Below, piece by piece: positions 20,383-64,000 of a stretch of DNA of 64,000 nt; within the stretch, counting starts at the first letter, position 1, and every line of letters begins with the position of its first letter. The DNA is from a candidate division WOR-3 bacterium UBA3073 (GTDB lineage Bacteria > Hydrothermota > UBA3073). The notes under the pieces are model-generated. The model searched no databases and was not told where the DNA came from. It worked only from the letters and a program-made list of their open reading frames with translations. The stretch spans positions 4,910-68,909 of the forward strand of contig DFBT01000095.1 in NCBI GenBank assembly GCA_002366725.1. Direction: 5' to 3'. The translations under genes were made by a program, and so were the position numbers.

Positions 20383-20402
20383 ATTCAATAAGGAATTTCC
20401 CC

Positions 20403-21548: not shown

Positions 21549-21594
21549 CGTATTTTTTTATGACATATTTCATCTAGTTTTATTAGTGATTTTT

Positions 21595-21980: not shown

Positions 21981-21983
21981 TTG

Positions 21984-25165: not shown

Positions 25166-25730
25166 TTATTTTCCTTATAACCCTTGCGGGTACACCAACA
25201 GCCACTGAATATGGTGGTATATCACTATTTACGAGGGCATTTGCCCCTATGACTGCGCATTCTCCAATACTAACCCCGGGCATTATAGTAGTACAAGCAC
25301 CAATCCATGCTCCCCTTCCCACCCTTATCTTCCCAGTTTTTCTTTTGAAATATCTCCTTAAGAGTCTCTCCCCTGGGTCTGAATGTGTTAAAAAAGTCAC
25401 CTTTGCAGAGATTACGCCCTCGATTTCAATAATCACGGGTTCTACGAGGTCGAAGAAGACATTCTTACCGATGTAACACCTGTCTCCTATCACAAGATTT
25501 GAATAATCCTTTGTTATCGCATTATCTATTATAATGGCGGTGGAGATATTAACTTTTTCACCAATTTTTGCACCAAATCTTACAAGTACATTTCTCACAA
25601 CCTGTTTTGGCAATCTTCCAATGTAATTAGATAGGTGGTCAATCCCGAAGATTCTGTATATAAAGACCGCCTTTATAATGATGGGGAAAAGTACCAACGC
25701 CTTTCCAGATTTTCTAAACAGCTTCTTCAT
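25158..25730 (-). CDS. Hexapeptide-repeat (LbH) sugar O/N-acetyltransferase
   Basis: Left-handed beta-helix repeats 'IGDRCYIGKNVFF', 'VGRGAWIGACTTIMPGVSIGECAVIGANALV'; 190 aa. Confidence 0.8.
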   Translation of the reverse strand: MKKLFRKSGKALVLFPIIIKAVFIYRIFGIDHLSNYIGRLPKQVVRNVLVRFGAKIGEKVNISTAIIIDNAITKDYSNLVIGDRCYIGKNVFFDLVEPVIIEIEGVISAKVTFLTHSDPGERLLRRYFKRKTGKIRVGRGAWIGACTTIMPGVSIGECAVIGANALVNSDIPPYSVAVGVPARVIRKINE

Positions 25731-31918: not shown

Positions 31919-33586
31919 TCACCCCATCCTCTTTCTCACCATCCGCTCTATCTCCCCACTCATTTTCACGACCTCCTCCTCTATCTCTTTTCTCTCATCC
32001 CCTATCCCTTTTCTGAATTCTTCATCCCTCACATTCGGAATGTTTATATCTACATTCAGTGCCGCCCCCTTAACCGCTGTCTCCGCCTCGAGTGCGGCAA
32101 CCGCGATGTCGGATATTGCATTCACATTACATATGCCCGCGGCATCTTTCAACAGCTCCATTATCTTTTTACCCTCATGCATAATCCTCAGGGGAACCAG
32201 GATCGCTTTTTTCGTTGCCTTTTCTACCGCCTCGTCTCTCTTCTTCTTATCCTCTTCTGTCTTTTTGGGAAGTCTCATTGCGGACATTATTCCGTTGAAT
32301 GCCTCTGTGTCCTCATCCACGAGTTTTATGAGTTCATCTTTTAATCCCTGTGCCTTCACACCAATTTCCTTGACCCTCTCCTGGGCGTCCTCGTATCCCT
32401 TTTTGCCCACAGTGAGAATGCAGACCATCGACAGGAGGGCACCGGAGAAGGCACCCGAAAGGGCAGATACACTCCCGCCCCCGGGTGCCGGTGAGTCCAT
32501 AGAGACCTCATCTATAAAATCCCTCGTTGCCGCATCGAGGAGGGATTTCTTGTTTTCTACCCTGTACTCAATTATCTTCTCCCCGGGGATAAATGGTTTT
32601 ATTTCTGACAATCCGAGTGTCTGAATGGCGATCCTTATGAGCTCCTTCTCGGGAACACCCGCAGACCTTCCCTGTCTCAGTAAATAGTGTCTTCCCGCCT
32701 CAAGTAGGGCATCCCTTGGAATAAGTCCTACGACCTCGCTTCCCGTCACGCGCAGTCCCAGCTTGTCTGCCTCTTTGCAGCACTCATCAAACACACGATA
32801 GAGTGGAGTTACCTTATAATTTGTAAGATTGATAGATATCTGCGCCATGTTATACTCGTCGATATACCAACCGACCGCCCTCACACACTTAAGTCTTCCC
32901 TTTTCTCTTACGATCTTACCCTCCTCATCCCTTAAAATCTTTCCCTTCTCATCCCTCTTTGCCCTGCCCATCTCGCGAATATTGAGGGCGACCTCATGAG
33001 CGAGCCTTTTATTTCTCGTATTCAAGTTTACATTGTATGCTATGAGAAACTCCCTCACCCCCACAACGGTCGCACCCGCCCTTTTGTCAAATCTCGCGGG
33101 ACCATAATCCGGTGCCCAGTTTGGGTTCTTGAGCTTCTCCGCGAGCCCTTCATATTCTCCCTTTCTTATATCAGCAAGGCTTTTTCTCTCGGGAGATGTA
33201 GCGGCATGTTCATAGAGATATACGGGTATTTCCAGATCGTCCCCCACTCTCTTGGCAAGTTTGTGTGCGAGCTCAACACACTCCTCTACGGTTATACCCG
33301 ATATGGGAACAAGCGGGCACACATCGGTCGCACCCATTCTCGGGTGTTCCCCCTTATGCACAGACATATCTATTAGCTCTTTTGCCTCTTTTATCGCCCG
33401 AAAAGCCGCCTCAACTACCGCTTCGGGTGTTCCGGCGAATGTTACAACGGTTCTGTTCGTCGCCTCACCGGGGTCGACATCAAGAAGCGTGGCCCCATCC
33501 ACCGCCTCTATCTCGTCGGTAATTGCCTTTACCACATGCCGGTCCCGTCCTTCGGAGAAATTGGGGATACATTCTACGAGAGCCAT
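31919..33586 (-). CDS. ftcD: Bifunctional glutamate formimidoyltransferase / formimidoyltetrahydrofolate cyclodeaminase
   Basis: N-term 'MALVECIPNFSEGRDRHVV' formiminotransferase; C-term cyclodeaminase 'SPAPGGGSVSALSGAFSGALLSMV'; 555 aa. Confidence 0.85.
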   Translation of the reverse strand: MALVECIPNFSEGRDRHVVKAITDEIEAVDGATLLDVDPGEATNRTVVTFAGTPEAVVEAAFRAIKEAKELIDMSVHKGEHPRMGATDVCPLVPISGITVEECVELAHKLAKRVGDDLEIPVYLYEHAATSPERKSLADIRKGEYEGLAEKLKNPNWAPDYGPARFDKRAGATVVGVREFLIAYNVNLNTRNKRLAHEVALNIREMGRAKRDEKGKILRDEEGKIVREKGRLKCVRAVGWYIDEYNMAQISINLTNYKVTPLYRVFDECCKEADKLGLRVTGSEVVGLIPRDALLEAGRHYLLRQGRSAGVPEKELIRIAIQTLGLSEIKPFIPGEKIIEYRVENKKSLLDAATRDFIDEVSMDSPAPGGGSVSALSGAFSGALLSMVCILTVGKKGYEDAQERVKEIGVKAQGLKDELIKLVDEDTEAFNGIMSAMRLPKKTEEDKKKRDEAVEKATKKAILVPLRIMHEGKKIMELLKDAAGICNVNAISDIAVAALEAETAVKGAALNVDINIPNVRDEEFRKGIGDERKEIEEEVVKMSGEIERMVRKRMG

Positions 33587-33987
33587 ACACCCCCCAGGGT
33601 AAAATCAAATATCAAATATCAAAAATTAAAATTGTTATTTTTGGACGCAGATTTACGCTGATACTTTAAGATTATAGAATTATTAAAGCGACGACCTTTA
33701 GAACAGAGTGCTTGCCAAAGCCAGAGTATAACAGAGTAGTGGATACTCTAATTACTTAATAAATTAATTACTATTTTCGTCTGCGCCTTTCTGCGTTTAC
33801 CCCGTTAAATAGAACTGTTTCGAGAACGCTCTGATATTTATCGTTATATTATTTAACGGGGTGAATCTGTCCCGCTTTCTTCGGGATCCCGCCAAAGGCG
33901 GGACGTCCGATTGGTTTTTTATTTTACACCAACTTTTCACTTTTGTCAAGTCTTTTTCAGAAAACATTGATTTTTTTCAAAAAAAAC

Positions 33988-34016
33988 TTGAAATTTTCGG
34001 AATTTTGTGTTATAAT
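33988..34016 (+). promoter_or_regulatory. Sigma70-like promoter upstream of folK (TTGAAA-17-TATAAT)
   Basis: Consensus-like hexamers with 17-nt spacer ~105 nt upstream of folK start. Confidence 0.5.
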
Positions 34017-34120
34017 ATATAGAAAGGGGATTCAATACATTTTTGTTTTTTTTAAATCTTTGTATCCTGGCTATTTTATGCCGTTTGCTTTTTGGGTGAG
34101 TTAAAGGAGTGTGATATTGA

Positions 34121-34615
34121 TTGTTAACATACCTAAGTCTCGGGTCTAATTTAGGAGAAAAGTTATTTAATCTTAAAGAAGCTGCAAAATCTCTTTCCAA
34201 CTACGGGAGAATCGTAAAGGCATCATCGGTTTACGAAACGGAACCTGTGACCGAGAGTCCACAGCCGATGTTTCTCAATTGTGTTCTCGAATACGATTTC
34301 TCCTCTGGCTCGCCGTTTGAACTCCTTAGATACATCCACGGAATAGAAACCCGTCTCGGCAGAGAAAGAGATGAAAGATCGGGGCCGAGAACGATTGATA
34401 TAGATATACTCTTTTTCGGCGATATGGTGATAAACGCACCCGGTATTGTTATACCTCATCCCAGACTTGCCGAGAGATTGTTCGTACTCATCCCCCTGAA
34501 GGAGATCGCCCCTCTTTTGATACATCCAAAGGAAAAGGTATCCATATTAGAACTATATAATAAAATCCATGAAAGTAATTACTACTTTGAGAAATATGCG
34601 GACCCTATCCAGTGA
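34121..34615 (+). CDS. folK: 2-amino-4-hydroxy-6-hydroxymethyldihydropteridine pyrophosphokinase (HPPK)
   Basis: 'YLSLGSNLGEK', 'YETEPV', 'RTIDIDILFFGD'; TTG start after AAAGGAG RBS. Confidence 0.85.
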   Translation: MLTYLSLGSNLGEKLFNLKEAAKSLSNYGRIVKASSVYETEPVTESPQPMFLNCVLEYDFSSGSPFELLRYIHGIETRLGRERDERSGPRTIDIDILFFGDMVINAPGIVIPHPRLAERLFVLIPLKEIAPLLIHPKEKVSILELYNKIHESNYYFEKYADPIQ

Positions 34616-35423
34616 ACTCCGCAGGGAGAAAATGATTGGGTTCGTTCCCACGATGGGCTTTTTACACGGGGGACATCTGTCTCTCGTAGACAGGGCTGTA
34701 TCTTTGTCTGATATCGTGGTGGTAAGCATATTCGTAAATCCAGAGCAGTTTGGACCATCCGAGGACTTTTTGACTTATCCAAGGGATTTTGGGCGTGACA
34801 GGCGACTCCTGGAAGAGAAAGGAGCTGATATAGTTTTCTATCCGGAGACCGAAGATATATATCCTCCGGGGTATTCGACCTATGTAGAGGTAGAGGGATT
34901 TGACACAACACTCTGTGGGGCAAGAAGACCCGGGCATATGAGGGGGGTTGCAACCATATGTATGAAACTTTTTAACATCGTGAAACCCCACCTTGCGGTA
35001 TTTGGTGAGAAAGATTATCAGCAGGCGGTGATGATTAAAAAAATGGTTTCTGATATGAATCTTGATATGGAGATAGTCACCTCTCCCACAGTTAGAGAAG
35101 AAGACGGGCTTGCTGTTTCTTCGAGGAATAGGTACTTAAATGAGGAAGAGAGGAGGGATGCCGCAGTTCTCTATCGCGCCTTGCTTCTTGGGAAAAAACT
35201 GATAGAAGGGGGTGAGGATAATGTGGATGAGGTTGTTGGCGCAATGGAAAAGATGATAGAAGAAAAAAAGACCGCACGAATTGAGTATATAGAGGTTGTT
35301 AATAGTGAGAACCTGAAACTTACAGAGAGGATAGATAGACCCGTACTGCTTGCCCTTTCAGTTCACTTCGGCGGGGCAAGGTTGATTGATAACATAATTG
35401 CAGTTCCAGAGGATGCAACTTAG
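34569..35423 (+). CDS. panC: Pantoate--beta-alanine ligase
   Basis: 'IGFVPTMGFLHGGHLSLV' HIGH-type motif; 284 aa; 47-nt overlap with folK. Confidence 0.9.
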   Translation: MKVITTLRNMRTLSSELRREKMIGFVPTMGFLHGGHLSLVDRAVSLSDIVVVSIFVNPEQFGPSEDFLTYPRDFGRDRRLLEEKGADIVFYPETEDIYPPGYSTYVEVEGFDTTLCGARRPGHMRGVATICMKLFNIVKPHLAVFGEKDYQQAVMIKKMVSDMNLDMEIVTSPTVREEDGLAVSSRNRYLNEEERRDAAVLYRALLLGKKLIEGGEDNVDEVVGAMEKMIEEKKTARIEYIEVVNSENLKLTERIDRPVLLALSVHFGGARLIDNIIAVPEDAT

Positions 35424-52233: not shown

Positions 52234-52306
52234 GCCGGCGTAGCTCAGATGGAAGAGCACCTGACTGTGGATCAGGGTGTCATGGGTTCAAGTCCCGTCG
52301 CCGGTA
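52234..52306 (+). tRNA. tRNA-His (anticodon GTG)
   Basis: Hand-folded cloverleaf: acceptor GCCGGCG/CGCCGGT (G1-U72), D-arm GCTC-AGATGGAA-GAGC, anticodon stem CCTGA/TCAGG with loop CTGTGGA, T-arm ATGGG-TTCAAGT-CCCGT, discriminator A; no encoded G-1 or CCA; starts right after fabG stop. Confidence 0.7.
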
Positions 52307-52774: not shown

Positions 52775-52996
52775 ATGAAGAGACTTAATATTACTTTGCC
52801 AGAAGATCTGGCTCAGGAGTTAGAAGCAATCTCCAATAAGAGTCGCTTTATTGCTGAGGCGGTGAAAGAGAGGTTGGAAAGAATCAGGAGAGAAAAACTG
52901 GACAAACTTTTAGTCGAGGGGTATAAAGCAACTTGTAGAGAAGACAGGGAAGTTGATAAAGAGTGGGAGGAGATTACACTTGAATCATGGAAGTGA
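52775..52996 (+). CDS. mazE: MazE/CopG-type ribbon-helix-helix antitoxin
   Basis: 'KRLNITLPEDLAQELE...SRFIAEAVKERLER' RHH; ATG 8 nt after AGGAGG; 10-nt overlap with toxin gene. Confidence 0.7.
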   Translation: MKRLNITLPEDLAQELEAISNKSRFIAEAVKERLERIRREKLDKLLVEGYKATCREDREVDKEWEEITLESWK

Positions 52997-53343
52997 ACTT
53001 TCCAAAAAGAGGAGAAATTTGGCTTGTCTCTTTAGAGCCTGTAGTTGGTACTGAGATAGGTAAAGCAAAACCGGCTATAGTGATCTCAAATGATAGAAAT
53101 AACCAATTTGCAGCTACAGTAACTGTAATTCCCATTACTTCAAAAACAGAGAGGATACATCCGTTTGAAGTCTTCCTCCCTGCAGAAAAGACGGGATTAG
53201 CCAGGGATTCTAAGGCAAAGTGCAATCAGATTCGGACGATTGATAAAAAGAGATTGGTTAAATCGCTGGGAGCATTGTCTTTAAATAAAGTGCGAGAGAC
53301 AGAAAAAGCTCTTCTCATTCATCTTGGTATAAAAGTTAGTTAA
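52987..53343 (+). CDS. mazF: MazF/PemK-family endoribonuclease toxin
   Basis: 'RGEIWLVSLEPVVGTEIGKAKPAIVISND...TVIPITS' PemK/MazF signature; 118 aa. Confidence 0.8.
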   Translation: MEVNFPKRGEIWLVSLEPVVGTEIGKAKPAIVISNDRNNQFAATVTVIPITSKTERIHPFEVFLPAEKTGLARDSKAKCNQIRTIDKKRLVKSLGALSLNKVRETEKALLIHLGIKVS

Positions 53344-53531: not shown

Positions 53532-55022
53532 ATGGCACTACCGTTAAATATCGATAAGTTGATCAACGGTTCAGTTATGGAGTGGGAACGCCTTGAATTC
53601 AAGAAGGGATGGAATCCTGAAGATGTTATTCACGCCATTTGTGCGTTTGCCAACGATATCCATAACTGGGGCGGTGGGTATGTCATTCTGGGAGTTGAGG
53701 AAAGGAATGGCAGACCTGTTTTACCACCAAGTGGGTTAGAGCCCAATCAACTGGATAAAATTCAAAATGAACTCATTGGTCTTTTTCATAAACTGGACCC
53801 CTACTATTTGCCGGTGGTTCAACCAGAGATTTATCAGGATAAACATATTTTGATCCTCTGGGTATATGGCGGCGATGAGCGTCCCTATAAAGCACCGATG
53901 TCACTTGGTGATAGAAGCTCTAAAGCAATTTACATCAGACGAGGTTCTCAAACATGCAAAGCCAATCAAACAGAAGAACGACAACTGCGGGAAATCGCTG
54001 TCAGAATTCCTTTTGATGATAGAATAAATCATCACGCAGATGTTAAAGATTTAAATCTTGCCAATATTCAGGCGTTTCTGAAAGAGGTAGAGAGCGATTT
54101 ATATGAAGAGTCAACACAAATTCCTTTTACCGAATTGTGTGAACAAATGAAGATTGTCCAAGGGCCAACAGAATATTTGAGACCGGTTAATATTGGCTTG
54201 CTGATGTTCAGCGATCATCCTGAAGAATACTTTGTTGGGGCAGGAATCGATGTAGTGATCTACCAAGATGAAATCGGCGACCATTTTACAGAAAAAACCT
54301 TCACAGGACCGATTCACCAGCAATTGCGCGATGCATTGCATTATGTAAAGACAACCGTCATTAGAGAGGAAGTTCAAAAGGTTCCTGGACAGGCAGAAGT
54401 GTTGCGATTTTACAATTATCCCTACGAAGCCGTAGAAGAAGCACTTGCTAATGCCGTATACCACCGCGGTTATGAACATCAGAATCGAATTGAAGTAAAT
54501 GTTCGTCTGGATTGCATAGAAATTTTGAGTTATCCCGGTCCCCTCCCCCCGGTGGACGCCAAAGCACTGAAAAAGAGACGAATCGTAGCACGGAATTACC
54601 GAAATCGGCGTATCGGCGATTTTTTGAAGGAACTGGACCTGACGGAAGGCAGGGCTACTGGCTTCCCAAAAATCTATAAGGCAATGGGAGTCAACCGCTC
54701 ACCGCCGCCGGAGTTTACTACCGACTCGGACAGAAACTATTTCTTGACCGTTTTGAAGAAACATCCGTTGTCCCAAGTAGTGTCCCAAGAGCTGTCCCAA
54801 GTTGAAGAAGGATTAAGTGAACAAGCTATAAAGATTCTTGGGTTCTGTAGGATAGCAAGGAAAAGACAGGAGATACTGGTCTATATTGGTTTGTCAAATC
54901 ATCCTGATAACTACAAACGCCATATTAAACCTCTTATAGAAAGTGGTAAATTGGAGCTGACGATACCTGACAAACCAAAACATCGAAATCAGAAGTATCG
55001 AACACGAAAGAGGAACATATAA
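53532..55022 (+). CDS. AlbA_2 (Schlafen-like divergent AAA_4) + HATPase_c_4 + C-terminal wHTH putative nucleic-acid-binding regulator
   Basis: N-term '[41 protein letters not shown]' AlbA_2 signature; central ATPase-like region; C-terminal HTH; 496 aa. Confidence 0.7.
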
Positions 55023-55783: not shown

Positions 55784-56698
55784 ATGAATAGAAAAAAAAT
55801 TTACAATTTAGAATTCCCAAGTTATTGTGAAAAACTTAATATTGGAGGACATGTTTTTAAGAGGGTTAAAGATTATGAAAAGCAAGTAAAAAGTCTTCAA
55901 CATTTGACCACTGTTCTCTCTGAATACTCAATTAGCGCTAATACCGGATCGCATAATATTACTGCCTTTGTAGAGCTCCCTATTAAAGAGAAGAAAGCGG
56001 TTTTCCCTTGGGATAAAAATAATGCTACAGCATTGAATGACATTTTAGTGCTTTTATCAATTTTTACAGGGCGAGATGTGTTTTTGGATGAACCTTTGGA
56101 CAAGCCATCTGCGATCATTGCAGACCCGCGGAAATACCAATGGGGCGGATCTTTAAGGTGCTCGATACCTTACAAGGAGACAAAGAAAGATCAAGATTTA
56201 GGGTACAACATAGGATTTGAAGAAGGATTAAATAAGATTTATTCACTAATAAGAACTGACCAATGGTTAAAGAAGTATCAAGATGGATACTTTTTGCTTT
56301 TACTTAAGCATGCAGAAAAAAGACAGATTTTAGAGACTGCCTTTGTTTTGCATTGGACAATCTTGGAACATCTTTTCACCTTGCACAACAGAAAGTGGCT
56401 TTCAGATGAACAGATACGGAAGTTACCTTCAGCGGAAAAAATATCTTTTCTTCTTGTTGAATACGCTCTAAGCTCAGAGATTACCAAACCCAATAAAAAA
56501 AGGATTTCAGAGTTAGCAGGAGTCAGAAATAGACTGGTACATTTTGGCAAATTCCTTGATGCCAGGGCTGAGAAAAATGCAGAGCTAGTTATAAGACTTA
56601 CAGAATTTATTGTTGCTAAAATATTAGGCCTTTTGCCTTCAAATGTATTTAATACGATTGAGAGGTTGGAACAGTTTTTCAATAGCAGTTCTAAATAG
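55784..56698 (+). CDS. Hypothetical protein with C-terminal HEPN-like Rx4H motif (candidate Abi/RNase-type defense protein)
   Basis: 304 aa; 'ELAGVRNRLVHFGKF' matches the HEPN Rx4-6H signature; AT-rich, in island. Confidence 0.45.
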   Translation: MNRKKIYNLEFPSYCEKLNIGGHVFKRVKDYEKQVKSLQHLTTVLSEYSISANTGSHNITAFVELPIKEKKAVFPWDKNNATALNDILVLLSIFTGRDVFLDEPLDKPSAIIADPRKYQWGGSLRCSIPYKETKKDQDLGYNIGFEEGLNKIYSLIRTDQWLKKYQDGYFLLLLKHAEKRQILETAFVLHWTILEHLFTLHNRKWLSDEQIRKLPSAEKISFLLVEYALSSEITKPNKKRISELAGVRNRLVHFGKFLDARAEKNAELVIRLTEFIVAKILGLLPSNVFNTIERLEQFFNSSSK

Positions 56699-56795: not shown

Positions 56796-59700
56796 ATGAA
56801 TTCAGATTTAACATTTATCACTAACGAAAAAGAGAGAACCCTTCTTGAAAGGTTTAAGGTACTTATCAAGGACGCATCTCTGTTTGATGTTCTGGTTGGA
56901 TACTTTTATACAAGTGGTTTTTATGCATTATACAAATCATTAGAGTCCACAGAAAAAATCAGGATTCTAATAGGGATGGGGACAGGTAAAGAAACTATAA
57001 GACTTATTCAAAAGGCAAAAGGCGAAGAGCAATTAACCCTCCAATTCTCACATGCTGTGGTGAAACAAGAGTTTGGAAACTCTGTTACGGAAGAGATGGA
57101 ACAATCAGAGGATAGCGCTAATGTTGAAGAGGGAGTTTTCAAATTTATTGAATGGCTAAAAAATGGGAAACTAAAAATAAGAGCCTATCCCAGCAGGGAC
57201 ATTCATGCAAAGCTCTATATTATGACCTTCACAGAAGGCGATAGAGATACAGGGAGGGTTATCACTGGTTCAAGTAACTTTACCCGGGCTGGGCTTATAG
57301 ATAATTTGGAGTTTAATGTAGAACTAAAGAACAGATCTGATTATGAATTCGCTCTTGAGAAGTTTAATGAACTCTGGGAGAACTCTGTTGATATATCCGA
57401 CAAATATGTTGAAACCATTAATTCCAGGACCTGGCTGAACAATACAATAACCCCTTACGAGTTGTATCTAAAGTATCTATACGAATATTTGAGAGAGAAA
57501 ATAAATATTGATCAGGAGAAGGTAATTGGTCGTTATCGTCCGCGTGATTTTATGGACCTGGAGTATCAAAGGGAAGCAGTACAAGATACCAAGAGTAAGT
57601 TAAAAGAATACGGCGGTGTATTTCTATCAGATGTAGTGGGTCTGGGAAAGACCTATATTTCCGCCATGCTCGCACAAGAATTGAGCGGGCGCAATCTAAT
57701 CATTTGCCCACCCGTGCTAAAGGAATACTGGCAGGATACTTTTACTGGTTTCAATCTTCAAGCCACTGTAGAATCCTTGGGTAAATTGGATCAACTTGCC
57801 AAAAAAGGCACTGAAGACTATGAGAATATCTTTATTGACGAGGCACATCGTTTTCGCAATGAATCCAACCAGACATACGAGAAATTAAAAGAAATCTGCT
57901 GGGGCAAAAAGATTATTCTGGTATCAGCCACTCCTCAAAATAACACTCCAATAGACCTTCTAAGTCAGATAAAGTTATTCCAGAAGGGGCACAAAAGCAC
58001 CATCCCTGGTTTACAGGACATAGAAAGATATTTTAACTCGCTACAGAAAAAATTAAAGGGTATAGATCGCCAATCTGATTTTGCGAAATATATCTCTATA
58101 ATCAAAGAGAATTCTAAAGCAATTAGAGAAAATGTTCTAAAAGATTTAATGGTTAGAAGAACCAGAGGTGATGTAGAAAAATATTTTTCACAGGACTTGA
58201 AAAATGAGAAACTGAAATTTCCAACAATTAGAGACCCTGAGAAAGTATATTACGAGTTTGACGAAGAAACAGACCGCACCTTTAACAAAACTATAGAAAA
58301 GATAAAAGGATTTCAATATTTTCGCTATACGCCGATATTGTATCTTAAAAATCCCAAGCCAGAAGAAAAAGAGGAATTGGTTGGACAGCGCAACTTAAGA
58401 CGCTTTATGAAAATTCTTTTGGTAAAACGTCTTGAAAGCAGTTTTTTTGCCTTCAAGAAAACCTTAAATAGATTTATCTCTTCATACGAAAGGTTTATTA
58501 AGATGTTTGAAGGTGGGACAGTTTATATAAGCAAAAAGTATACACATAGAATATTTGAACTTCTTAATAACGATGATGAAGATGAAATAATGAGATTGGT
58601 AGAAGAAGAAAAAATAAGGCAGTATAAAATTGATGAATTTAAGGATGGTTATGTTGACAATTTAAGGCGTGATTTAAGGGTTCTTAGAGAGATAGAATCT
58701 CTGTGGAAGAACATAACAGCAGACCCTAAAATTGAGAAATTTAAGGAAATATTGGAAAGCGACAAAATATTAAAAGGAAAAAAGATTATTGTATTCACGG
58801 AATCAAGAGAAACCGCAGAATATCTGGAACAGAATTTGAAGAGTACATATAAAGACGCTGTGATGTCTTATTCCAGTCAATCAAGTGCTCGTATTCAAGA
58901 TAAAGTAATTGAAAACTACGACCCAAAGTGTAAATATCCAAAAGATGATATAAGTCTCTTGATTTCTACTGAGATTCTCTCTGAAGGTGTTAATCTACAC
59001 CGTTCTAATGTGGTTGTGAATTATGACCTTCCCTGGAACCCAACCCGAGTAATACAAAGGGTAGGTCGTATAAATAGAGTGGATACTACATTTAATGATA
59101 TTTATATCTACAATTTTTTCCCAACAAAGCAATCAAATGATGTGATGAAATTAGAAGAAGCTGCTATCGGAAAGCTTCAGTCATTTCACGATATGTTAGG
59201 AGAGGATGCGGCTTATCTGACTGATGGTGAGGAAGTTGGTTCCCACGAGCTATTTAATAGGGTGAATTCTAAAAGGGTTATTGGGGGTGAAGATGAGGAG
59301 TTAGGGGACTCAGAACTTGAGTATTTGATGGAAATCAGGGCTGTTCGCGACAAGAATCCAGATTTATTTGAAAAAATTAAATATTTACCTAAAAAGGCAC
59401 GAAGCGCCAAAAAATATCCAGTAGAAGAAGATGCGGTTTTGACTTTCTTTAGAAAGGGTAGTTTGAGAAAGGTATTCATAACCGACAGTAAGTCAACAAG
59501 GGAATTAGATTTTTTCCTGACAGCCAATATCTTAAAATCAGTACCAGAAGAAAAAAGAGAAAAACCCGGTAAAAAATTCTATGGTTATCTTGATAACAAC
59601 AAAGAAGAATTTAGGCTGGCTACACTTGAAGAAATTATAGAACCCAAACAAAAAGGCGGCAGAAGCAGTGAGGCAAAACTAAAGGGTATAATCAAGGCAA

Positions 59701-59963
59701 TCCAAAAAACAAAGGGTTTTACAGAAGATGATGATAAGTATCTCAAAAAAGTGCTCAATCTTTTAGAAGAAGGGATCCTGCCAAAGCAAACCAGTAAAAC
59801 CATAATGAAAAACATTGGAAAAGAGATGAACCCCTTGAAAATACTTAGCATAATAAGAAAACATACTCCGGATAGCCTTTTTGCAGTTCCAGTAACAGAT
59901 AGAACCAGTCATACTTCTGGGCCGAGAGAGGTAATTCTTTCGGAATATTTAATTGGTGAATAG
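56796..59963 (+). CDS. PLD-family nuclease domain fused to SNF2-family (SF2) helicase
   Basis: N-term 'DIHAKLYIMTF...GRVITGSSNFT' (HxK...GSxN); helicase motifs 'VVGLGKTYIS' (I), 'IFIDEAHRFRN' (II, DEAH), 'LVSATPQNN' (III), 'QRVGRINR' (VI); start at ATG 56796 after GGAAGG. Confidence 0.8.
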   Translation: MNSDLTFITNEKERTLLERFKVLIKDASLFDVLVGYFYTSGFYALYKSLESTEKIRILIGMGTGKETIRLIQKAKGEEQLTLQFSHAVVKQEFGNSVTEEMEQSEDSANVEEGVFKFIEWLKNGKLKIRAYPSRDIHAKLYIMTFTEGDRDTGRVITGSSNFTRAGLIDNLEFNVELKNRSDYEFALEKFNELWENSVDISDKYVETINSRTWLNNTITPYELYLKYLYEYLREKINIDQEKVIGRYRPRDFMDLEYQREAVQDTKSKLKEYGGVFLSDVVGLGKTYISAMLAQELSGRNLIICPPVLKEYWQDTFTGFNLQATVESLGKLDQLAKKGTEDYENIFIDEAHRFRNESNQTYEKLKEICWGKKIILVSATPQNNTPIDLLSQIKLFQKGHKSTIPGLQDIERYFNSLQKKLKGIDRQSDFAKYISIIKENSKAIRENVLKDLMVRRTRGDVEKYFSQDLKNEKLKFPTIRDPEKVYYEFDEETDRTFNKTIEKIKGFQYFRYTPILYLKNPKPEEKEELVGQRNLRRFMKILLVKRLESSFFAFKKTLNRFISSYERFIKMFEGGTVYISKKYTHRIFELLNNDDEDEIMRLVEEEKIRQYKIDEFKDGYVDNLRRDLRVLREIESLWKNITADPKIEKFKEILESDKILKGKKIIVFTESRETAEYLEQNLKSTYKDAVMSYSSQSSARIQDKVIENYDPKCKYPKDDISLLISTEILSEGVNLHRSNVVVNYDLPWNPTRVIQRVGRINRVDTTFNDIYIYNFFPTKQSNDVMKLEEAAIGKLQSFHDMLGEDAAYLTDGEEVGSHELFNRVNSKRVIGGEDEELGDSELEYLMEIRAVRDKNPDLFEKIKYLPKKARSAKKYPVEEDAVLTFFRKGSLRKVFITDSKSTRELDFFLTANILKSVPEEKREKPGKKFYGYLDNNKEEFRLATLEEIIEPKQKGGRSSEAKLKGIIKAIQKTKGFTEDDDKYLKKVLNLLEEGILPKQTSKTIMKNIGKEMNPLKILSIIRKHTPDSLFAVPVTDRTSHTSGPREVILSEYLIGE

Positions 59964-59965
59964 CT

Positions 59966-62900
59966 ATGGATAAACAAGACGCAATAAAAATTATTAGAGA
60001 TACTTTTGAAAGACCTTTTGACAGAAGGTGTTTTACTTATTTTGTAAAGAATCTGCTTAACAATATAGAATCTGAAGACAAACATCCTTATAGCGGCAAA
60101 TACATTCCCGATGCTTATAAACCTTTCATTAGCACACTCAAGCGCATTGGCAAATATAAGGACTCTGACGATAATAAAATAGATATTCTTATTGTTCATC
60201 TTAAAAAACCAATATCACTTGAACGGGCACGGACAATGCAGAGAAATTTCATTGCATGGTATCTCAAAGGCAGTCGTGGAGATATATTAAAAGATGCGGC
60301 TTTGGTCGCGTATGTTTCACCTGATCAGGAGGACTGGCGATTTTCTCTAGTTAAAATGGAATACAAACTTACCCAGACTAAAACTGGCAGGGTAAAGGCA
60401 AAAGAAGAATTAACCCCGGCCCGCAGATATTCTTTCTTAGTAGGAAAAAATGAACCAAATCATACCGCAAAACAACAACTCGTTCCACTCCTGCAGGATG
60501 ACAAAAATAATCCTACCTTGACTCAATTAGAAGATGCGTTCAGTATAGAAAAGGTCACTAAAGAATTCTTTGAAAAGTATCGGAACTTGTTGTTTGGGGA
60601 CAAAGGAATCAAAGAAGTTCTGGATAAAATTGTTAAAAAAGATTTGGCTATTCAAAAAGATTTTAATGACAAAGGCGTTGATACTGTTAATTTCCCCAAG
60701 AAACTTTTAGGTCAGATTATTTTTCTCTATTTTTTGCAAAAGAAAGGTTGGATGGGCGTACCATCAAATAAGTCTTGGGGTGAAGGCGACAAAAGTTTTT
60801 TACGAACTCTGTTTATTAGGAGTAAAAATGAACATAAAAATTTTTTCAATGATTATTTAGAGATTTTGTTTTACAATACATTAAACAATCCTCGTCAGAC
60901 TGAAGTTGACCCCAGTTATTCCAGAGATTTTGATTGCAGAATCCCATTTTTAAATGGTGGTCTTTTTGAACCAATACAGGGTTATGATTGGCAATATACG
61001 GATATTCTTCTGCCTAATGAGTTATTCTCCAACCAAATTAGAACAAAAGAAGGTGATATAGGCACTGGGATTTTAGATGTCTTTGATAGATATAACTTCA
61101 CTGTTAAAGAAGATGAGCCGTTAGAAAAAGAGGTAGCTATTGATCCGGAAATGCTTGGGAAAGTTTTTGAAAATCTTCTAAAGGTTAAGGATAGAAAATC
61201 TAAGGGTTCTTATTATACCCCCCGTGGGATTGTCCACTATATGTGTCAGGAGAGTTTGATAAATTATCTGGACACAGAAATAAATGTTGAACAAAAGCCT
61301 TTAATTAAGGGAAAAGGCATTCAAACAAAACTTTTGGGTGAACAAGCACCTATACAGAAAAGTCTAACTGCTCCCAGATATTTAACTGTAGTCTCTAAAG
61401 AAAATATTGAAAATCTTATTCGCTACGGTGATTTGGCTATTGAACATGACATAGCCAAAGAAGAAGGCACGAAAACCTATAGACACAAATTGCCTGAAAG
61501 TATCCGGCAAAATGTCAAGCTGATTGACGAAAAATTGGCAAATATCAGAATATGCGACCCTGCCATCGGCTCAGGTGCTTTCCCTGTTGGAATGATGACA
61601 GAGATCGTTAGGGCAAGAAATGTCCTCACAACTTACCTACCTGACGAAAGCAAGAAAGACAGAAAGATTTATAATTTCAAACGTCATTGCATACAAAACT
61701 GTCTTTACGGTGTAGATATTGATCCGGGAGCGGTAGAAATAGCCAAACTCCGTCTGTGGTTATCCCTTATTGTTGATGAAGAGGATATAAAACAGATTAA
61801 GCCTTTGCCGAATTTGGATTATAAGATAATCTGCGGTAATTCACTCTTGAGAGTAGAGAAAAGTTTTTTTAATTTGAAGGCATTTACAAAACTTGAAAAA
61901 CTTAAACCATTATTTTTTGAGGAGACTATTTCACGCAAAAAGCAAGGATATAAACAACAAATTGATGAATTGATAAAGGAAATTACAAATAATGATGAGC
62001 ATTTTGATTTTGAGGTTTATTTTTCAGAAGTCTTTCATGAAAAAAAAGGGTTTGATGTAGTGATTGCCAATCCACCGTATATAAGTTTTGGATTGAGAGG
62101 ATCTGACAAAGCTAAAAAAGATTGGGATGCTTATGTTAGAAAGAGCTATCCAAACTCCGCAGAATATAAATTAAGCACTTATGCTATATTTATAGATAAG
62201 GGGATCCAACTACTTAGAGACAAAGGAAACATATGCTATATTACACCTGATAGCTACCTATTAGGACGATATTTTTCAAAATTAAGGAATTACATTTTAA
62301 ATTCAACCTCTATAAAACAAATATTAATGTTTGAAACTGATTTTTGGCGAGAAGGAGTGATTGGTAGACCAACGATTACTCTAATGCAAAAAAATCAAAA
62401 GAAAGGATTATGCGAGATTGAACTATTTAAAAATTTAGAAAATTTTGAAAGAGGTTTTTGCCTAAGAAACTCATATTCGCAAGAATATTTTAATAATAAT
62501 AAATATAAGCGTTTTAAACTACTTTTTAGTAATAGAGCAAAAAGACTTGTAGAAATTGTTGAAGCTGATTCAATATCACTTGGGGATGTAGCAAAAATTA
62601 CCACTGGCGTAAGGTCGAAAATTGGACAGAAGAAAATTATAGCAGATAGACAGGCAGAAAAAAATTGGAAGAAAGGTATAATTTCCAGTGCCCAAGTTTA
62701 TCCATACATAGTCAAATGGAGGGGACATTATCTAAATATTGATAAAAAACTGTTATGGGCAGGTGGATGGGATTCAAATATAGTAGAAAATCCAAAGATA
62801 ATGATTAGACAAACTAGTGATTCATTAATTGCAGGAATTGATATGGAAGGGTTTTATCATCTTAACAATGTGCATTCTTTAAGCATCCTAAAGGAGAACA

Positions 62901-63196
62901 TATCTCTTGAGTATATTTGTGCCGTGTTAAATTCGAAACTAATGAATAAATTTTATCAACTTGTTAGTCTTGAAAGAAGCAGAACAATGGCTCAAACTGA
63001 TATTGATGTATTAGAAACATTACCTATCAAAATGATAGAAATGAAAGCCCAAAAAAAGATTATAGAATTGGTACACCAAATTATTCATAATGGCTTACTA
63101 AATCAAATCTTAGAAGAAATTGAAAATTTGATATGTGAGATATACAAATTGCCAGCAGAAATGAAAAAATATGTCATGGAAGATAATTTATATTAA
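59966..63196 (+). CDS. Large gamma-class N6-adenine DNA methyltransferase (Eco57I/type IIG / BREX PglX / DISARM DrmMI-like) with N-terminal extension and C-terminal TRD-like region
   Basis: Motif X 'GSYYTPRGIVHYM', motif I 'DPAIGSGAFPVGM', motif IV 'VIANPPY'; 1076 aa; 2-nt gap from upstream helicase gene. Confidence 0.8.
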   Translation: MDKQDAIKIIRDTFERPFDRRCFTYFVKNLLNNIESEDKHPYSGKYIPDAYKPFISTLKRIGKYKDSDDNKIDILIVHLKKPISLERARTMQRNFIAWYLKGSRGDILKDAALVAYVSPDQEDWRFSLVKMEYKLTQTKTGRVKAKEELTPARRYSFLVGKNEPNHTAKQQLVPLLQDDKNNPTLTQLEDAFSIEKVTKEFFEKYRNLLFGDKGIKEVLDKIVKKDLAIQKDFNDKGVDTVNFPKKLLGQIIFLYFLQKKGWMGVPSNKSWGEGDKSFLRTLFIRSKNEHKNFFNDYLEILFYNTLNNPRQTEVDPSYSRDFDCRIPFLNGGLFEPIQGYDWQYTDILLPNELFSNQIRTKEGDIGTGILDVFDRYNFTVKEDEPLEKEVAIDPEMLGKVFENLLKVKDRKSKGSYYTPRGIVHYMCQESLINYLDTEINVEQKPLIKGKGIQTKLLGEQAPIQKSLTAPRYLTVVSKENIENLIRYGDLAIEHDIAKEEGTKTYRHKLPESIRQNVKLIDEKLANIRICDPAIGSGAFPVGMMTEIVRARNVLTTYLPDESKKDRKIYNFKRHCIQNCLYGVDIDPGAVEIAKLRLWLSLIVDEEDIKQIKPLPNLDYKIICGNSLLRVEKSFFNLKAFTKLEKLKPLFFEETISRKKQGYKQQIDELIKEITNNDEHFDFEVYFSEVFHEKKGFDVVIANPPYISFGLRGSDKAKKDWDAYVRKSYPNSAEYKLSTYAIFIDKGIQLLRDKGNICYITPDSYLLGRYFSKLRNYILNSTSIKQILMFETDFWREGVIGRPTITLMQKNQKKGLCEIELFKNLENFERGFCLRNSYSQEYFNNNKYKRFKLLFSNRAKRLVEIVEADSISLGDVAKITTGVRSKIGQKKIIADRQAEKNWKKGIISSAQVYPYIVKWRGHYLNIDKKLLWAGGWDSNIVENPKIMIRQTSDSLIAGIDMEGFYHLNNVHSLSILKENISLEYICAVLNSKLMNKFYQLVSLERSRTMAQTDIDVLETLPIKMIEMKAQKKIIELVHQIIHNGLLNQILEEIENLICEIYKLPAEMKKYVMEDNLY

Positions 63197-63213
63197 ATTT
63201 AAAGGGGGAGAAA

Positions 63214-64000
63214 ATGTTTGTAAAAATGGGTTTCAAAAAATGGACAAAGGGGACACAAGCAGGTTTAAGAATATATACTGATTCAATAAATAAACTCTCT
63301 AGTATCCTTGAATTTCCTTCGCGAGACACACAATGGAGGTCGCTTAGAGATTTTTTACGCGCGATAGAACTGTCAGGAGATGGAACAAATGTACCACCTT
63401 ACTCACGAAACTTACAAATTGTAGATATCTCTTTATCAAAAAAACTTTCTGCAACGATGACTATTGCTCAGCATAATCACTCAACACAAGGATACATTAC
63501 TGTTTCAAGTGGAACTTGGTTAGGAATAATAGTCGAAAAATTTATGAATAGAAATTTCTATTGTGAGTATGTTAGCGGAGAGAATATTGATTTATTAATT
63601 TTACCTGATTTTAAACTTGATATTAGAAAACAGAGAAAAAATGAATTAAATATAATAGAAAAGAAAGTATATTCCAAATCTTTACGCAAATCTAATGTAG
63701 CTCCGCTTGAAGCAAATATAATAGGTCTATATTTTGAACTAGAAGAAGTAAAGTATATTTCAGAGAAAGAAAAACTTGCTCCTTTCCATAGATTCCCGAA
63801 TTTAAACAGTAATCTGCCAAAAATTGCTAGGAGAAATATCTCGTGTGATATAGATGTATGCGATAATCAAGGGCACTTTGTTAAGTTCGTTGAAGTTAAA
63901 TCTGTATATGGTCTTCCTGGAAAAGAGTTTAATCTTACAATAAATGAATATAAATCTAGGGAAATATGTCGTAGAAATAAATGGGAATATGAGATCGTAG
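63214..64000 (+). CDS. DUF3883-like PD-(D/E)xK nuclease-domain protein (3' partial at window end)
   Basis: GGGGAG RBS; C-terminal 'DIDVCDNQGHFVKFVEVKSV...FNLTINEYKSREI...WEYEIV' = D...EVK nuclease core plus DUF3883-type tail. Confidence 0.55.
   Translation, partial: MFVKMGFKKWTKGTQAGLRIYTDSINKLSSILEFPSRDTQWRSLRDFLRAIELSGDGTNVPPYSRNLQIVDISLSKKLSATMTIAQHNHSTQGYITVSSGTWLGIIVEKFMNRNFYCEYVSGENIDLLILPDFKLDIRKQRKNELNIIEKKVYSKSLRKSNVAPLEANIIGLYFELEEVKYISEKEKLAPFHRFPNLNSNLPKIARRNISCDIDVCDNQGHFVKFVEVKSVYGLPGKEFNLTINEYKSREICRRNKWEYEIV

What the first reader, a model, noticed from the sequence alone, without database searches (positions are those of the whole stretch)
56796..64000. Candidate undescribed helicase-methyltransferase-nuclease defense module: PLD::SNF2 fusion + PglX/DrmMI-like m6A MTase + DUF3883 nuclease
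Three co-directional genes with 2-nt and 17-nt gaps lie at the far end of an AT-rich island next to tRNA-His. (i) A 1055-aa protein joins an N-terminal PLD-type nuclease signature (DIHAKLYIMTF...GRVITGSSNFT, i.e. HxK...GSxN) to a complete SNF2/SF2 helicase core (GLGKT, DEAH box IFIDEAHRFRN, SAT, QRVGRINR). (ii) A 1076-aa gamma-class N6-adenine MTase has motif order X (GSYYTPRGIV), I (DPAIGSGAFP), IV (VIANPPY), a ~380-aa N-terminal extension and a long TRD-like C-terminus. That is the architecture of BREX PglX, type IIG Eco57I-like enzymes and DISARM DrmMI. (iii) The third protein ends in a PD-(D/E)xK core (DIDVCD...FVEVK) with a DUF3883-type tail (FNLTINEYKSREI...WEYEIV). Canonical class 1 DISARM has separate DrmD (SNF2), DrmMI, DrmA, DrmB (DUF1998) and DrmC (PLD). 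Here PLD is fused onto the SNF2 protein, and the gene after the MTase is a DUF3883 nuclease rather than DrmA. No PglZ, BrxC or BrxL lies upstream, so it is not canonical BREX either. It may be a compact, fused DISARM/BREX-like variant or a distinct restriction system. The N-terminal extension of the MTase contains a possible degenerate PD-(D/E)xK-like strand (KIDILIVHLKK), so the MTase itself could be a type IIG-like RM enzyme.
Basis: partly seen in the sequence, partly recalled or inferred. Interest (0 to 1): 0.82.

Follow-up and report, generated by a model that had tools for sequence, protein, structure and literature searches.

The report
Helicase-nuclease plus methylase restriction module
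Three adjacent genes encode a motor protein fused to a DNA-cutting domain, a large DNA adenine methylase and a small extra nuclease; the first two form a widespread gene pair that looks like an uncharacterised ATP-driven restriction system, related to known defence systems but belonging to none of them.

Summary
Genes g1 (56796-59963), g2 (59966-63196) and g3 (63214 to past the window end; 298 aa in full) are real, co-directional and tightly packed.

- **g1** is a PLD (HKD) nuclease fused to an SNF2-type motor. All catalytic motifs are invariant in 59 homologues.
- **g2** is an Eco57I/TaqI_C-type gamma m6A methylase. It has an MmeI/PglX-like helical region and an N-terminal nuclease-like fold without a canonical ExK.
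- **g3** is a high-confidence two-domain nuclease: a beta-rich N-domain, possibly B3-like, plus an Hjc-like PD-(D/E)xK domain.

The module is not DISARM, BREX, MANTIS (type-2 BREX-related) or Type III: defining genes are absent and curated score cut-offs are missed.

The new point is that g1+g2 is a conserved two-gene unit. In 73 of 75 informative loci from many phyla, a g1 homologue lies directly upstream of the methylase. Pipelines label the pair "Type IIG RM" plus "helicase-related protein". Papers mention it only in passing.

g3 belongs to a tiny family that always follows this kind of methylase, once without any helicase. Its N-domain recurs in nucleases paired with unrelated methylases. 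g3 is therefore most likely a methylase-coupled restriction nuclease.

Most likely function: an ATP-dependent restriction-modification-like defence module. Novelty: new variant of a known kind. Interest is moderate.

The parts
56796..59963 (+). g1: 1055-aa PLD(HKD) nuclease fused to an SNF2-type ATPase (predicted translocating nuclease)
   Evidence: Pfam PLDc_2, SNF2-rel_dom, Helicase_C. Best PADLOC match is 'HKD+Snf2' C3a139 at 1e-42. Full-length homologues lie directly upstream of the methylase in 73 of 75 informative loci.
56922..57377 (+). g1 PLD domain (aa 43-194) with one HKD motif: H137-x-K139 ... G158-S-S-N161
   Evidence: PF13091 2e-9. H137, K139 and GSSN are invariant in 59/59 homologues. 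One motif per chain implies that a dimer forms the active site. This is an inference from BfiI/Nuc and from the MtsD dimer structure (bioRxiv 10.64898/2026.09.23.753747).
57570..59081 (+). g1 SNF2-type motor (aa about 259-762): GLGKT, DEAH, SAT-type motif, QRVGRINR
   Evidence: PF00176, PF04851, PF00271. Motifs are invariant in 59/59. Nearest solved sequences are a DEAD/DEAH box helicase (8qy7), RapA and DDM1.
59966..63196 (+). g2: 1076-aa gamma-class N6-adenine DNA methylase with a single TaqI_C-type target-recognition domain
   Evidence: Pfam Eco57I 2e-39, TaqI_C 1.5e-19, MmeI_Mtase. PADLOC REase_MTase_IIG 2.8e-255 over aa 1-813. More than 8000 homologues.
59966..60475 (+). g2 N-terminal domain (aa about 1-170): weakly nuclease-like fold without a canonical (D/E)xK
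60518..61180 (+). g2 helical region (aa about 185-405) with the FLYFLQKKGW and IPFLNGGLF motifs
61508..63028 (+). g2 methylase core (motif I DPAIGSGAF, motif IV NPPY) and TaqI_C recognition domain (aa 909-1021)
   Evidence: Pfam. A profile search of solved structures matches CamA 5e-37, BseCI, PglX/BrxX and M.TaqI over aa about 690-1070.
63214..64000 (+). g3: first 262 of 298 aa of a two-domain nuclease (gene ends 110 nt beyond the window)
   Evidence: Full sequence from L001. The family has only 65 clusters, or 30 representatives among 1.84 billion. It lies directly after an Eco57I/TaqI_C methylase in 9 of 9 distinct contexts.
63214..63603 (+). g3 N-terminal beta-rich domain (aa 1-130), tentatively a B3/EcoRII-N-like DNA-binding pseudobarrel
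63706..64000 (+). g3 C-terminal PD-(D/E)xK nuclease domain (aa about 165-298, cut by the window end): E175, D212, E227-V-K229
53532..55022 (+). Probable accessory gene: Schlafen/AlbA_2 + HATPase_c_4 + Fic-like_C (wHTH) protein, 496 aa
   Evidence: Pfam. The same architecture lies between helicase and methylase in 7 of 80 related loci and just upstream of the helicase on a P. distasonis plasmid. This architecture is reported as a recurrent 'backup effector' next to BREX and BREX-related loci (PMC12839542).

Best explanation
g1 and g2 form a self-contained, ATP-dependent restriction-modification-like defence pair.

- g2 reads a short DNA site with its single TaqI_C-type recognition domain and marks host DNA with N6-methyladenine.
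- At unmodified sites g2 recruits or licenses g1.
- g1's SNF2-type motor moves along double-stranded DNA.
- g1's single HKD motif can form an active site only when two g1 chains pair, so cutting probably needs a g1 dimer or two converging complexes.

This is a split, PLD-armed analogue of Type III and Type ISP enzymes and of the MtsC/MtsD part of MANTIS. g2's own N-terminal nuclease-like domain has lost the canonical ExK and probably serves as a docking or regulatory domain.

g3 is a lineage-specific extra. It is a small restriction endonuclease with a DNA-binding N-domain and an Hjc-like PD-(D/E)xK domain. Its toxicity is held in check by the same methylase, which gives a second cutting activity.

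Shown here: gene order, domains, conserved catalytic residues and co-occurrence. Inferred: all activities, the g1-g2 interaction, the dimer requirement and g3's dependence on g2.
For: - Linkage. A g1 homologue (35-66% identical in the best aligned segment; full-length in 61 loci, cut or split in 12) lies directly upstream, on the same strand, in 73 of 75 informative loci across many phyla. The gap is 30 nt or less in 41 of them.
- Purifying selection. The PLD, Walker A, DEAH and arginine-finger motifs of g1 are invariant in 59/59. Methylase motifs I and IV are invariant.
- g2 lacks a canonical nuclease triad in 120/120 homologues, which fits a need for a separate nuclease.
- Analogy. MANTIS MtsD has the same PLD plus SF2 architecture, dimerises to build one PLD site, and all four genes (MtsABCD) are required for phage restriction.
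- Indirect experimental hints in distant relatives. Synechocystis slr6050 lies 675 bp downstream of a PLD-SNF2 gene on pSYSX, with a small ORF and a VapC gene between them. It is assigned to GAAGGC m6A, and its knockout could not be segregated. The Prevotella intermedia 17F Type IIG gene pin17FIII, which has an upstream SNF2 helicase, methylates GGYGAB when expressed in E. coli.
- Setting. Low-GC stretch after tRNA-His, with a toxin-antitoxin gene and a Schlafen-type gene beside it. Neighbours in related loci are other defence genes.
- g3. Confident nuclease fold with intact catalytic residues. It follows the methylase in 9/9 contexts, with overlapping or near-overlapping reading frames. It stays with the methylase's C-terminal half when the N-terminal half differs or the helicase is absent. 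Its N-domain recurs in two other proteins that sit beside small N6_N4 methylases in a Type II R-M-like arrangement; one of the two carries an Mrr_cat nuclease domain, while the C-terminal domain of the other has no Pfam match.
Against: - No experiment on this pair or on any close homologue was found. Cleavage by MtsD itself has not been reconstituted.
- MANTIS needs an AAA+ loader and a small co-factor for methylation. Nothing equivalent is conserved here, so the analogy may fail.
- Conserved acidic residues (D66, D73, E86) in the g2 N-domain leave room for a non-canonical nuclease.
- The contig ends about 870 nt after g3, so further partner genes in this genome cannot be excluded.
- If g2 methylates only one strand of an asymmetric site, a simple Type II-like g3 would endanger newly replicated DNA.
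Confidence: 0.6

Rival explanations
1. g2 is an ordinary self-sufficient Type IIG restriction-modification enzyme that cuts with its own N-terminal domain. g1 is a helper or an independent enzyme, for example a SauUSI-like Type IV nuclease against modified DNA, that merely travels with it.
For: PADLOC's REase_MTase_IIG model matches g2 at 2.8e-255 over aa 1-813. The N-domain has a weakly restriction-endonuclease-like fold and conserved acidic residues. According to Milman et al. (PMC9881135), homologues of C. jejuni Cj0031 include the methylases that have PLD-SNF neighbours; Cj0031 phase variation alters phage restriction (abstract). SauUSI shares the PLD plus SF2 layout.
Against: No D or E at the ExK position in 120/120 homologues. 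The 73/75 co-occurrence with very short intergenic gaps argues for an obligate partnership. g1 has no recognisable target-recognition or modified-base reader domain.
Confidence: 0.2
2. The locus is a reduced or fused member of a named multi-gene system (class 1 DISARM, BREX, or MANTIS / type-2 BREX-related), and the missing partners lie beyond the contig end or elsewhere in the genome.
For: g1 hits DrmD, BrxH and HmaA models, and g2 hits DrmMI and PglX models, at 1e-20 to 1e-36. The architecture equals DrmC+DrmD fused, next to a DrmMI-like gene. The contig ends about 870 nt after g3.
Against: All NCBIfam scores fall far below cut-off: DrmD 137 against 610, PglX 94 against 500. In loci with up to 10 kb on each side, no DrmA, DrmB, PglZ, BrxC, DUF499 or DUF3780 gene recurs, and neighbours are variable singletons. 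By the papers' descriptions the MANTIS / BREX-related methylase is of another kind (COG1743).
Confidence: 0.07
3. The pair is not a defence system. It is an epigenetic or DNA-transaction module, with methylation-linked remodelling or repair by an SNF2 motor, and the PLD domain acts on something other than invading DNA.
For: SNF2 proteins such as RapA act in transcription, and RapA is among the nearest solved sequences. Phase-variable Type IIG methylases alter gene expression.
Against: The distribution is patchy across phyla. The pair sits in low-GC islands next to toxin-antitoxin, Gabija-like, TIR and HerA genes. A nuclease active site is strictly conserved. A restriction-type nuclease (g3) is attached in one lineage.
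Confidence: 0.05

Closest known systems
MANTIS (Gao_RL, type-2 BREX-related system): MtsC methylase plus MtsD PLD-SF2 helicase-nuclease
   Same: The effector has the same layout: an N-terminal single-HKD PLD nuclease followed by an SF2 ATPase. It is paired with an N6-adenine methylase that sets specificity, and restriction is ATP-dependent.
   Different: MANTIS needs a DUF499 AAA+ ATPase (MtsA) and a small DUF3780 protein (MtsB); neither is present or conserved here. By the papers' descriptions its methylase is of a different kind from g2, which is Eco57I/TaqI_C/PglX-like. Sequence relatedness of g1 to MtsD was not measured because no MtsD sequence was available.
Class 1 DISARM (DrmD SNF2 helicase, DrmMI methylase, DrmC PLD nuclease, DrmA, DrmB)
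   Same: The same three domain types occur: SNF2, N6A methylase and PLD. g1 and g2 give significant partial hits to the DrmD and DrmMI models.
   Different: No DrmA or DrmB (DUF1998) is present. PLD is fused to the helicase. The NCBIfam DrmD score is 137 against a cut-off of 610.
Type III and Type ISP restriction-modification enzymes
   Same: The logic is the same: a methylase with its recognition domain provides specificity, and an SF2 motor with an attached nuclease provides ATP-dependent cutting, possibly needing two sites. That two-site step is inferred.
   Different: The nuclease is PLD at the N-terminus rather than PD-(D/E)xK. The motor is SNF2-like. There are two polypeptides, unlike Type ISP. 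The methylase is a 1076-aa MmeI/PglX-like protein, unlike a Type III Mod subunit.
Type IIG / IIL enzymes (MmeI, Eco57I, BpuSI) and BREX PglX
   Different: The canonical D...ExK of the N-terminal nuclease is missing. A helicase-nuclease partner is almost always present. No BREX genes are present.
SauUSI (Type IV PLD-helicase restriction enzyme)
   Same: PLD nuclease plus SF2 ATPase in one chain, acting as a dimer with one PLD site (as reported).
   Different: SauUSI carries its own reader domain and targets modified DNA without any methylase. g1 has an SNF2-type motor, and SauUSI did not appear among the 60 best of 89 solved-structure sequence matches that were listed.
Modular restriction endonucleases with a B3-like DNA-binding domain (EcoRII, BfiI, NgoAVII) and Hjc-type PD-(D/E)xK nucleases - for g3

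Membership tests
Class 1 DISARM | DrmA (large helicase) and DrmB (DUF1998) encoded in the locus | tested here: not met
   Neither is among the called genes of L001, L004, L005 or L093. No DrmA/DrmB hits among the large downstream ORFs of related loci. This genome's contig ends 870 nt after g3, so absence here is not absolute.
Class 1 DISARM | SNF2 helicase that qualifies as DrmD | tested here: not met
   NCBIfam DISARM_DrmD scores 137 bits against a cut-off of 610. The match covers only the C-terminal helicase lobe, aa 525-803.
Class 1 DISARM | PLD nuclease (DrmC) and N6A methylase (DrmMI) | tested here: inconclusive
   A PLD domain is present but fused to the helicase. The DrmMI models match g2 only in part (8.6e-28), against 2.8e-255 for the Type IIG model.
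BREX | PglZ and BrxC/PglY in the locus | tested here: not met
   No such Pfam families among the genes from tRNA-His to the contig end, nor as recurrent neighbours in 80 loci.
BREX | Methylase that qualifies as PglX | tested here: not met
   NCBIfam BREX_1_MTaseX scores 93.9 bits against a cut-off of 500.
MANTIS / type-2 BREX-related (Gao_RL) | DUF499 AAA+ ATPase and DUF3780 protein in the locus | tested here: not met
   Absent from the gene lists of this and related loci. The feature is defined in PMC12839542.
MANTIS / type-2 BREX-related (Gao_RL) | Helicase with an N-terminal HKD nuclease | tested here: met
   PLDc_2 at aa 43-194 followed by SNF2/Helicase_C. PADLOC 'HKD+Snf2' matches at 1e-42. 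Orthology to MtsD was not tested.
Type IIG restriction-modification enzyme | Gamma-class N6A methylase plus recognition domain in one chain | tested here: met
   Eco57I, N6_Mtase and TaqI_C domains. REase_MTase_IIG matches at 2.8e-255.
Type IIG restriction-modification enzyme | Active N-terminal PD-(D/E)xK nuclease domain in the same chain | tested here: not met
   The position equivalent to the E of ExK is R, H, Y, Q, K, T or N in 120/120 homologues, and K80 is kept in only 76/120. The fold is weakly nuclease-like, so a non-canonical site cannot be excluded.
Type III restriction-modification | Res subunit with an SF2 motor and a C-terminal PD-(D/E)xK nuclease; Mod subunit | tested here: not met
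   The nuclease is an N-terminal PLD. ResIII matches only weakly, at 5.5e-9 over aa 324-381. No Type III model appears among the 25 best PADLOC hits listed for either protein.
PD-(D/E)xK nuclease superfamily (g3 C-domain) | Restriction-endonuclease fold with a conserved acidic/lysine catalytic set | tested here: met
DUF3883 / NOV_C (PF13020) (g3) | Match to the Pfam model at or above its threshold | tested here: inconclusive
   g3 itself has no hit at E <= 1. 12 of 34 family members match weakly, best E 3.5e-5. One homologue is named a DUF3883 protein by NCBI.
B3 / EcoRII-N DNA-binding pseudobarrel (g3 N-domain) | Seven-stranded pseudobarrel fold similar to B3 domains | tested here: inconclusive

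The most novel reading that the evidence does not exclude
The PLD-SNF2 plus MmeI/PglX-like methylase pair is an autonomous, very widespread two-protein restriction system that deserves its own class. The methylase alone both marks self DNA and licenses a translocating nuclease. The single HKD active site forms only when two motors meet, so site orientation decides cutting. Unlike MANTIS, BREX and DISARM, no AAA+ loader or other helper is needed. In addition, g3 founds a new restriction-endonuclease family whose N-terminal DNA-reading domain is swapped among at least two nuclease folds (possibly three).
Probability: 0.4. Interest if true: 0.65.

Novelty: new variant of a known kind. Interest (0 to 1): 0.5.

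Why it matters
Annotation pipelines file this methylase under 'Type IIG RM', and the helicase-nuclease next to it gets no defence label. If the pair really works as a unit, hundreds of loci or more are mis-described. A minimal two-protein version of the methylation-guided, motor-driven restriction seen in DISARM, BREX-related and MANTIS systems would then be available. Such a version would be far easier to reconstitute than the four- to six-gene systems. It could show how a methylase hands an unmodified site to a PLD-armed motor, which is still unresolved for MANTIS. g3 adds a small, structurally well-predicted nuclease family with a portable DNA-binding domain, a possible source of new site-specific enzymes.

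Tried and rejected
- DISARM, BREX, MANTIS and Type III membership were rejected on missing genes and sub-threshold curated scores.
- A search for an att-type repeat of the tRNA-His 3' end downstream found nothing in the available sequence.
- Promoter and terminator scans gave counts no higher than shuffled controls and were not used.
- A DNA repeat search around g2, g3 and the orphan tail found nothing that suggests an invertible or shufflon-type cassette.
- PDB sequence searches gave nothing for g3 and only generic SF2 or methylase hits for g1 and g2.
- The AlphaFold-database fold library was unavailable.
- 'Stand-alone' g3 N-domain proteins in the representative search: the one checked is a truncated gene call on a 601-nt contig, so no conclusion was drawn from them.
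- A viral-contig scan found only 14 relatives of g2, so the module is not notably phage-borne.
- The accessory genes near the pair in other genomes (NYN, Bro-N, ORF6N, NgoFVII-like PLD, DUF6414, Cas4-like, Gabija-like, TIR, HerA) are too variable to count as parts of the system.
- The last allowed whole-database protein search, for g1 names, was not run because the plasmid annotations already showed the usual label, 'helicase-related protein'.

Full report
**What is in the sequence**

Three + strand ORFs fill 56796-64000.
- g1: 56796-59963, 1055 aa.
- g2: 59966-63196, 1076 aa.
- g3: starts at 63214.

The gaps are 2 and 17 nt, and a strong ribosome-binding sequence precedes g3. An exact-sequence look-up places the window in contig NOZQ01000003.1 of candidate division WOR-3 bacterium JGI_Cruoil_03_44_89. 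There g3 is 298 aa, ends 110 nt past the window, and the contig stops about 870 nt later.

tRNA-His lies at 52234-52306. After it come a small ORF, a PemK toxin gene, a 496-aa Schlafen/AlbA_2 + HATPase_c_4 + Fic-like_C protein and a 304-aa ORF with only a weak HEPN match. The three genes follow. GC falls from about 0.44 to 0.31-0.36.

**g1**

Pfam finds PLDc_2 (aa 43-194), SNF2-rel_dom/ResIII (aa 324-487) and Helicase_C (aa 645-762). The best PADLOC model is an 'HKD+Snf2' profile at 1e-42 over aa 15-787. The DrmD, HmaA, DpdE, BrxH and ZorD models match only the helicase part. Every NCBIfam hit is far below its cut-off: DrmD 137 against 610, and 'phospholipase D-like anti-phage protein' 151 against 1100.

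In 59 homologues with long ORFs (over 1000 aa), H137, K139, G158-S-S-N161, GLGKT, DEAH and QRxGRxNR are all invariant. There is one HKD motif per chain. Known single-HKD nucleases build their active site across a dimer (established knowledge for Nuc and BfiI). The same is reported for the MANTIS effector MtsD. The nearest solved sequences are a DEAD/DEAH box helicase (8qy7), RapA and DDM1, that is, mostly SNF2-type motors.

**g2**

Pfam finds Eco57I (2e-39), N6_Mtase, MmeI_Mtase and TaqI_C (aa 909-1021). PADLOC's REase_MTase_IIG model PDLC03596 matches aa 1-813 at 2.8e-255. The DrmMI and PglX models match far more weakly, and NCBIfam PglX scores 94 against 500. The family is huge, with over 8000 scored hits from many phyla. 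Sources name its members variously as restriction endonuclease, N-6 DNA methylase or Eco57I-domain protein.

Motif I (DPAxGSGAF) and motif IV (NPPY) are invariant. A profile search of solved structures matches aa about 690-1070 to CamA, BseCI, PglX/BrxX and M.TaqI.

An AlphaFold model of aa 1-420 (pLDDT 76) has two parts.

By my own alignment to the published MmeI motif D70...E80-x-K82, H78 would be the catalytic Glu. That position is R, H, Y, Q, K, T or N in all 120 homologues examined, and K80 is kept in only 76. D66, D73 and E86 are conserved. A canonical Type IIG nuclease site is therefore absent. A non-canonical one is not excluded.

**The conserved unit is g1+g2**

I kept 80 loci from Chloroflexota, Omnitrophota, Nitrospirota, Bacteroidota, Desulfobacterota, Patescibacteria, Spirochaetota, Planctomycetota, Cyanobacteriota and others.
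- In 73 of the 75 loci with enough upstream DNA, a g1 homologue lies directly upstream on the same strand. It is 35-66% identical to g1 in the best aligned segment.
- 61 of these are full length, and 12 are cut by a contig end or split.
- The gap is 30 nt or less in 41 loci. In 23 loci it exceeds 200 nt, and in many of these another gene sits between the two.

Other neighbours are variable. The most frequent is the Schlafen/AlbA_2-HATPase_c_4-wHTH gene, in 7 loci. Others include NYN, Bro-N, ORF6N, an NgoFVII-like PLD, DUF6414, a Cas4-like DUF2779 protein, Gabija-like genes, TIR and HerA. No DrmA, DrmB, PglZ, BrxC, DUF499 or DUF3780 gene recurs. The two loci without a helicase have other genes right after the methylase. 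L009 has a Cas4-like nuclease that overlaps the methylase stop codon.

**g3**

The family is tiny: 65 clusters in the 5.8-billion-sequence search, and 30 representatives at E <= 1e-3 among 1.84 billion. An AlphaFold model of a 90%-identical member is confident (pLDDT 93).
- E175, E178, R193, C211, D212, D214, V228 and K229 are invariant in 57 sequences, and E227 is nearly so. This is a classic E...D...ExK set.
- PF13020 (NOV_C, formerly DUF3883) matches 12 of 34 members weakly, but not g3 itself.

In nine distinct genomic contexts, g3 homologues lie directly after an Eco57I/TaqI_C-type methylase, often with overlapping stop and start codons. The link is with the methylase's C-terminal half.
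- In L007, L008 and L094 the N-terminal half is only 30-40% identical to g2, but the C-terminal part is 47-48% identical.
- In the archaeal-looking locus L092 only aa 522-1052 match, and no PLD-SNF2 gene is called in the roughly 5.5 kb upstream or 3.8 kb downstream that were retrieved.

The g3 N-domain also occurs fused to an Mrr_cat nuclease. That protein (P0203) is transcribed divergently from a small N6_N4 methylase in a phage-like contig. The domain is also fused to an unassigned C-terminal domain in P0208, which is convergent with another N6_N4 methylase.

Recurrent pairing with three unrelated methylase contexts, plus swapping of the C-terminal domain (a different nuclease fold in at least one case), is the signature of a restriction endonuclease with a portable DNA-binding module. 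I therefore read g3 as a methylase-coupled restriction nuclease added to the g1+g2 pair in one small lineage. It is absent from all 80 genome loci.

**Mechanism**

Shown here: the genes, their domains, the conserved catalytic residues, the tight and phylogenetically wide g1-g2 linkage, the g3-methylase linkage and the defence-island setting.

Inferred:
- g2 methylates a short site and confers specificity.
- g1 is recruited to unmodified sites, translocates with ATP and cuts through a dimer-assembled HKD site.
- g3 adds a second, ATP-independent cut.

The closest studied analogue is MANTIS. MtsD has the same PLD plus SF2 layout and forms a dimer with one PLD site. It restricts phage only together with the methylase-containing MtsABC complex, with a preference for inverted sites. 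MtsD cleavage has not yet been reconstituted.

Two distant relatives give indirect support. The first is Synechocystis slr6050. It is 22% identical to g2 and lies 675 bp downstream of a PLD-SNF2 'helicase-related protein' on pSYSX, with a small ORF and a VapC gene between them. It is assigned to GA(m6A)GGC, and its knockout could not be segregated, as expected if a cognate nuclease is active. The second is the Prevotella intermedia 17F Type IIG locus, which has an upstream SNF2/RAD54 helicase. Its gene pin17FIII methylates GGYGAB when expressed in E. coli.

**Comparison with what is known**

The module fails the membership tests for class 1 DISARM, BREX, MANTIS (type-2 BREX-related), Type III and Type ISP systems. 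It meets only the methylase half of the Type IIG definition.

The pairing has been recorded before, but only in passing.
- Johnston et al. mention the upstream SNF2 helicase.

Full-text searches for PLD/HKD-SNF2 terms found no study that names or tests the pair. The search covers open-access papers and bioRxiv only, so a study in a subscription journal could have been missed.

**Verdict**

The locus is best described as a widespread but uncharacterised two-gene, ATP-dependent restriction-modification-like module: a PLD-SNF2 nuclease-motor plus an MmeI/PglX-like methylase. Here it carries a rare third gene for a methylase-coupled PD-(D/E)xK endonuclease and sits in a defence island.

It is a new variant of a known kind. 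It would be moderately interesting to specialists as a minimal model for methylation-guided, motor-driven restriction.

Noticed in passing
window 53532-55022: A 496-aa Schlafen/AlbA_2 + HATPase_c_4 + Fic-like_C (wHTH) protein lies two genes upstream of g1. The same architecture sits between helicase and methylase in 7 of 80 related loci and just upstream of the helicase on a Parabacteroides distasonis plasmid. It may be a recurrent accessory or backup effector of the module.
   Followed up: partly
window 55784-56698: A 304-aa ORF lies directly upstream of g1. It has only a weak HEPN_Swt1 match (E 9e-4) and no homologue in any of the related loci fetched up to that point (L001-L091); function unknown.
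   Followed up: partly
window 52775-53343: A small ORF followed by a PemK-family toxin gene lies immediately after tRNA-His (52234-52306); a likely toxin-antitoxin pair at the island edge. No repeat of the tRNA 3' end was found downstream in the available sequence.
   Followed up: partly
L001 14129-14239 (about 94-204 nt beyond the window end): An orphan copy of the conserved C-terminal tail of this methylase family (…RQIDQMVYKLYELTEQEIKVIEESI*) overlaps the 3' end of g3 and runs just past it, in the same orientation. It looks like a relic left when a recognition-domain-plus-g3 cassette replaced or split the 3' end of an older methylase allele. It is seen only in the WOR-3 loci (L001-L003).
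   Followed up: partly
L092 (archaeal-looking contig JAIYSV010000043.1), 5564-9855: A methylase plus a g3 homologue occur with no PLD-SNF2 gene called in the retrieved flanks. The methylase N-terminal half is unrelated to g2 and carries a faint HSDR_N hit. g3 can therefore operate with a methylase alone.
   Followed up: partly
L096 7085-8888 and L112 5477-7239: Proteins with a g3-like N-terminal domain but a different C-terminal domain lie beside small N6_N4 (beta-class) methylases in Type II R-M-like pairs. One has Mrr_cat; the other has an unassigned domain that by eye resembles a T5orf172/GIY-YIG type. L096 looks like a phage genome.
   Followed up: partly
L009 9224-10693: In one of the two loci that lack the helicase, a DUF2779/Cas4-like nuclease gene overlaps the methylase stop codon. 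It may be an alternative nuclease partner for this methylase family.
   Followed up: no
window about 33000-35000: GC skew changes sign here. It is negative from about 2 to 33 kb and positive from about 34 kb onward, and the cumulative minimum lies near 33-35 kb. This may mark a replication origin or a switch in gene orientation.
   Followed up: no
window about 19000-31000: A second low-GC stretch (0.355-0.38 against about 0.44-0.48 around it); possibly another acquired island.
   Followed up: no
L001 14733-14753 / 14869-14889 and 14618 / 14689: A 21-nt inverted repeat (95% complementary, internally palindromic) and an exact 16-nt direct repeat lie close to the contig end. They may belong to a repeat element that broke the assembly.
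   Followed up: no
L004 13449-16307 (Dehalococcoides mccartyi AP024514.1): A second, 952-aa Eco57I/MmeI-type methylase gene lies on the opposite strand about 2.5 kb downstream of the g1-g2-g3 homologues in the same island.
   Followed up: no
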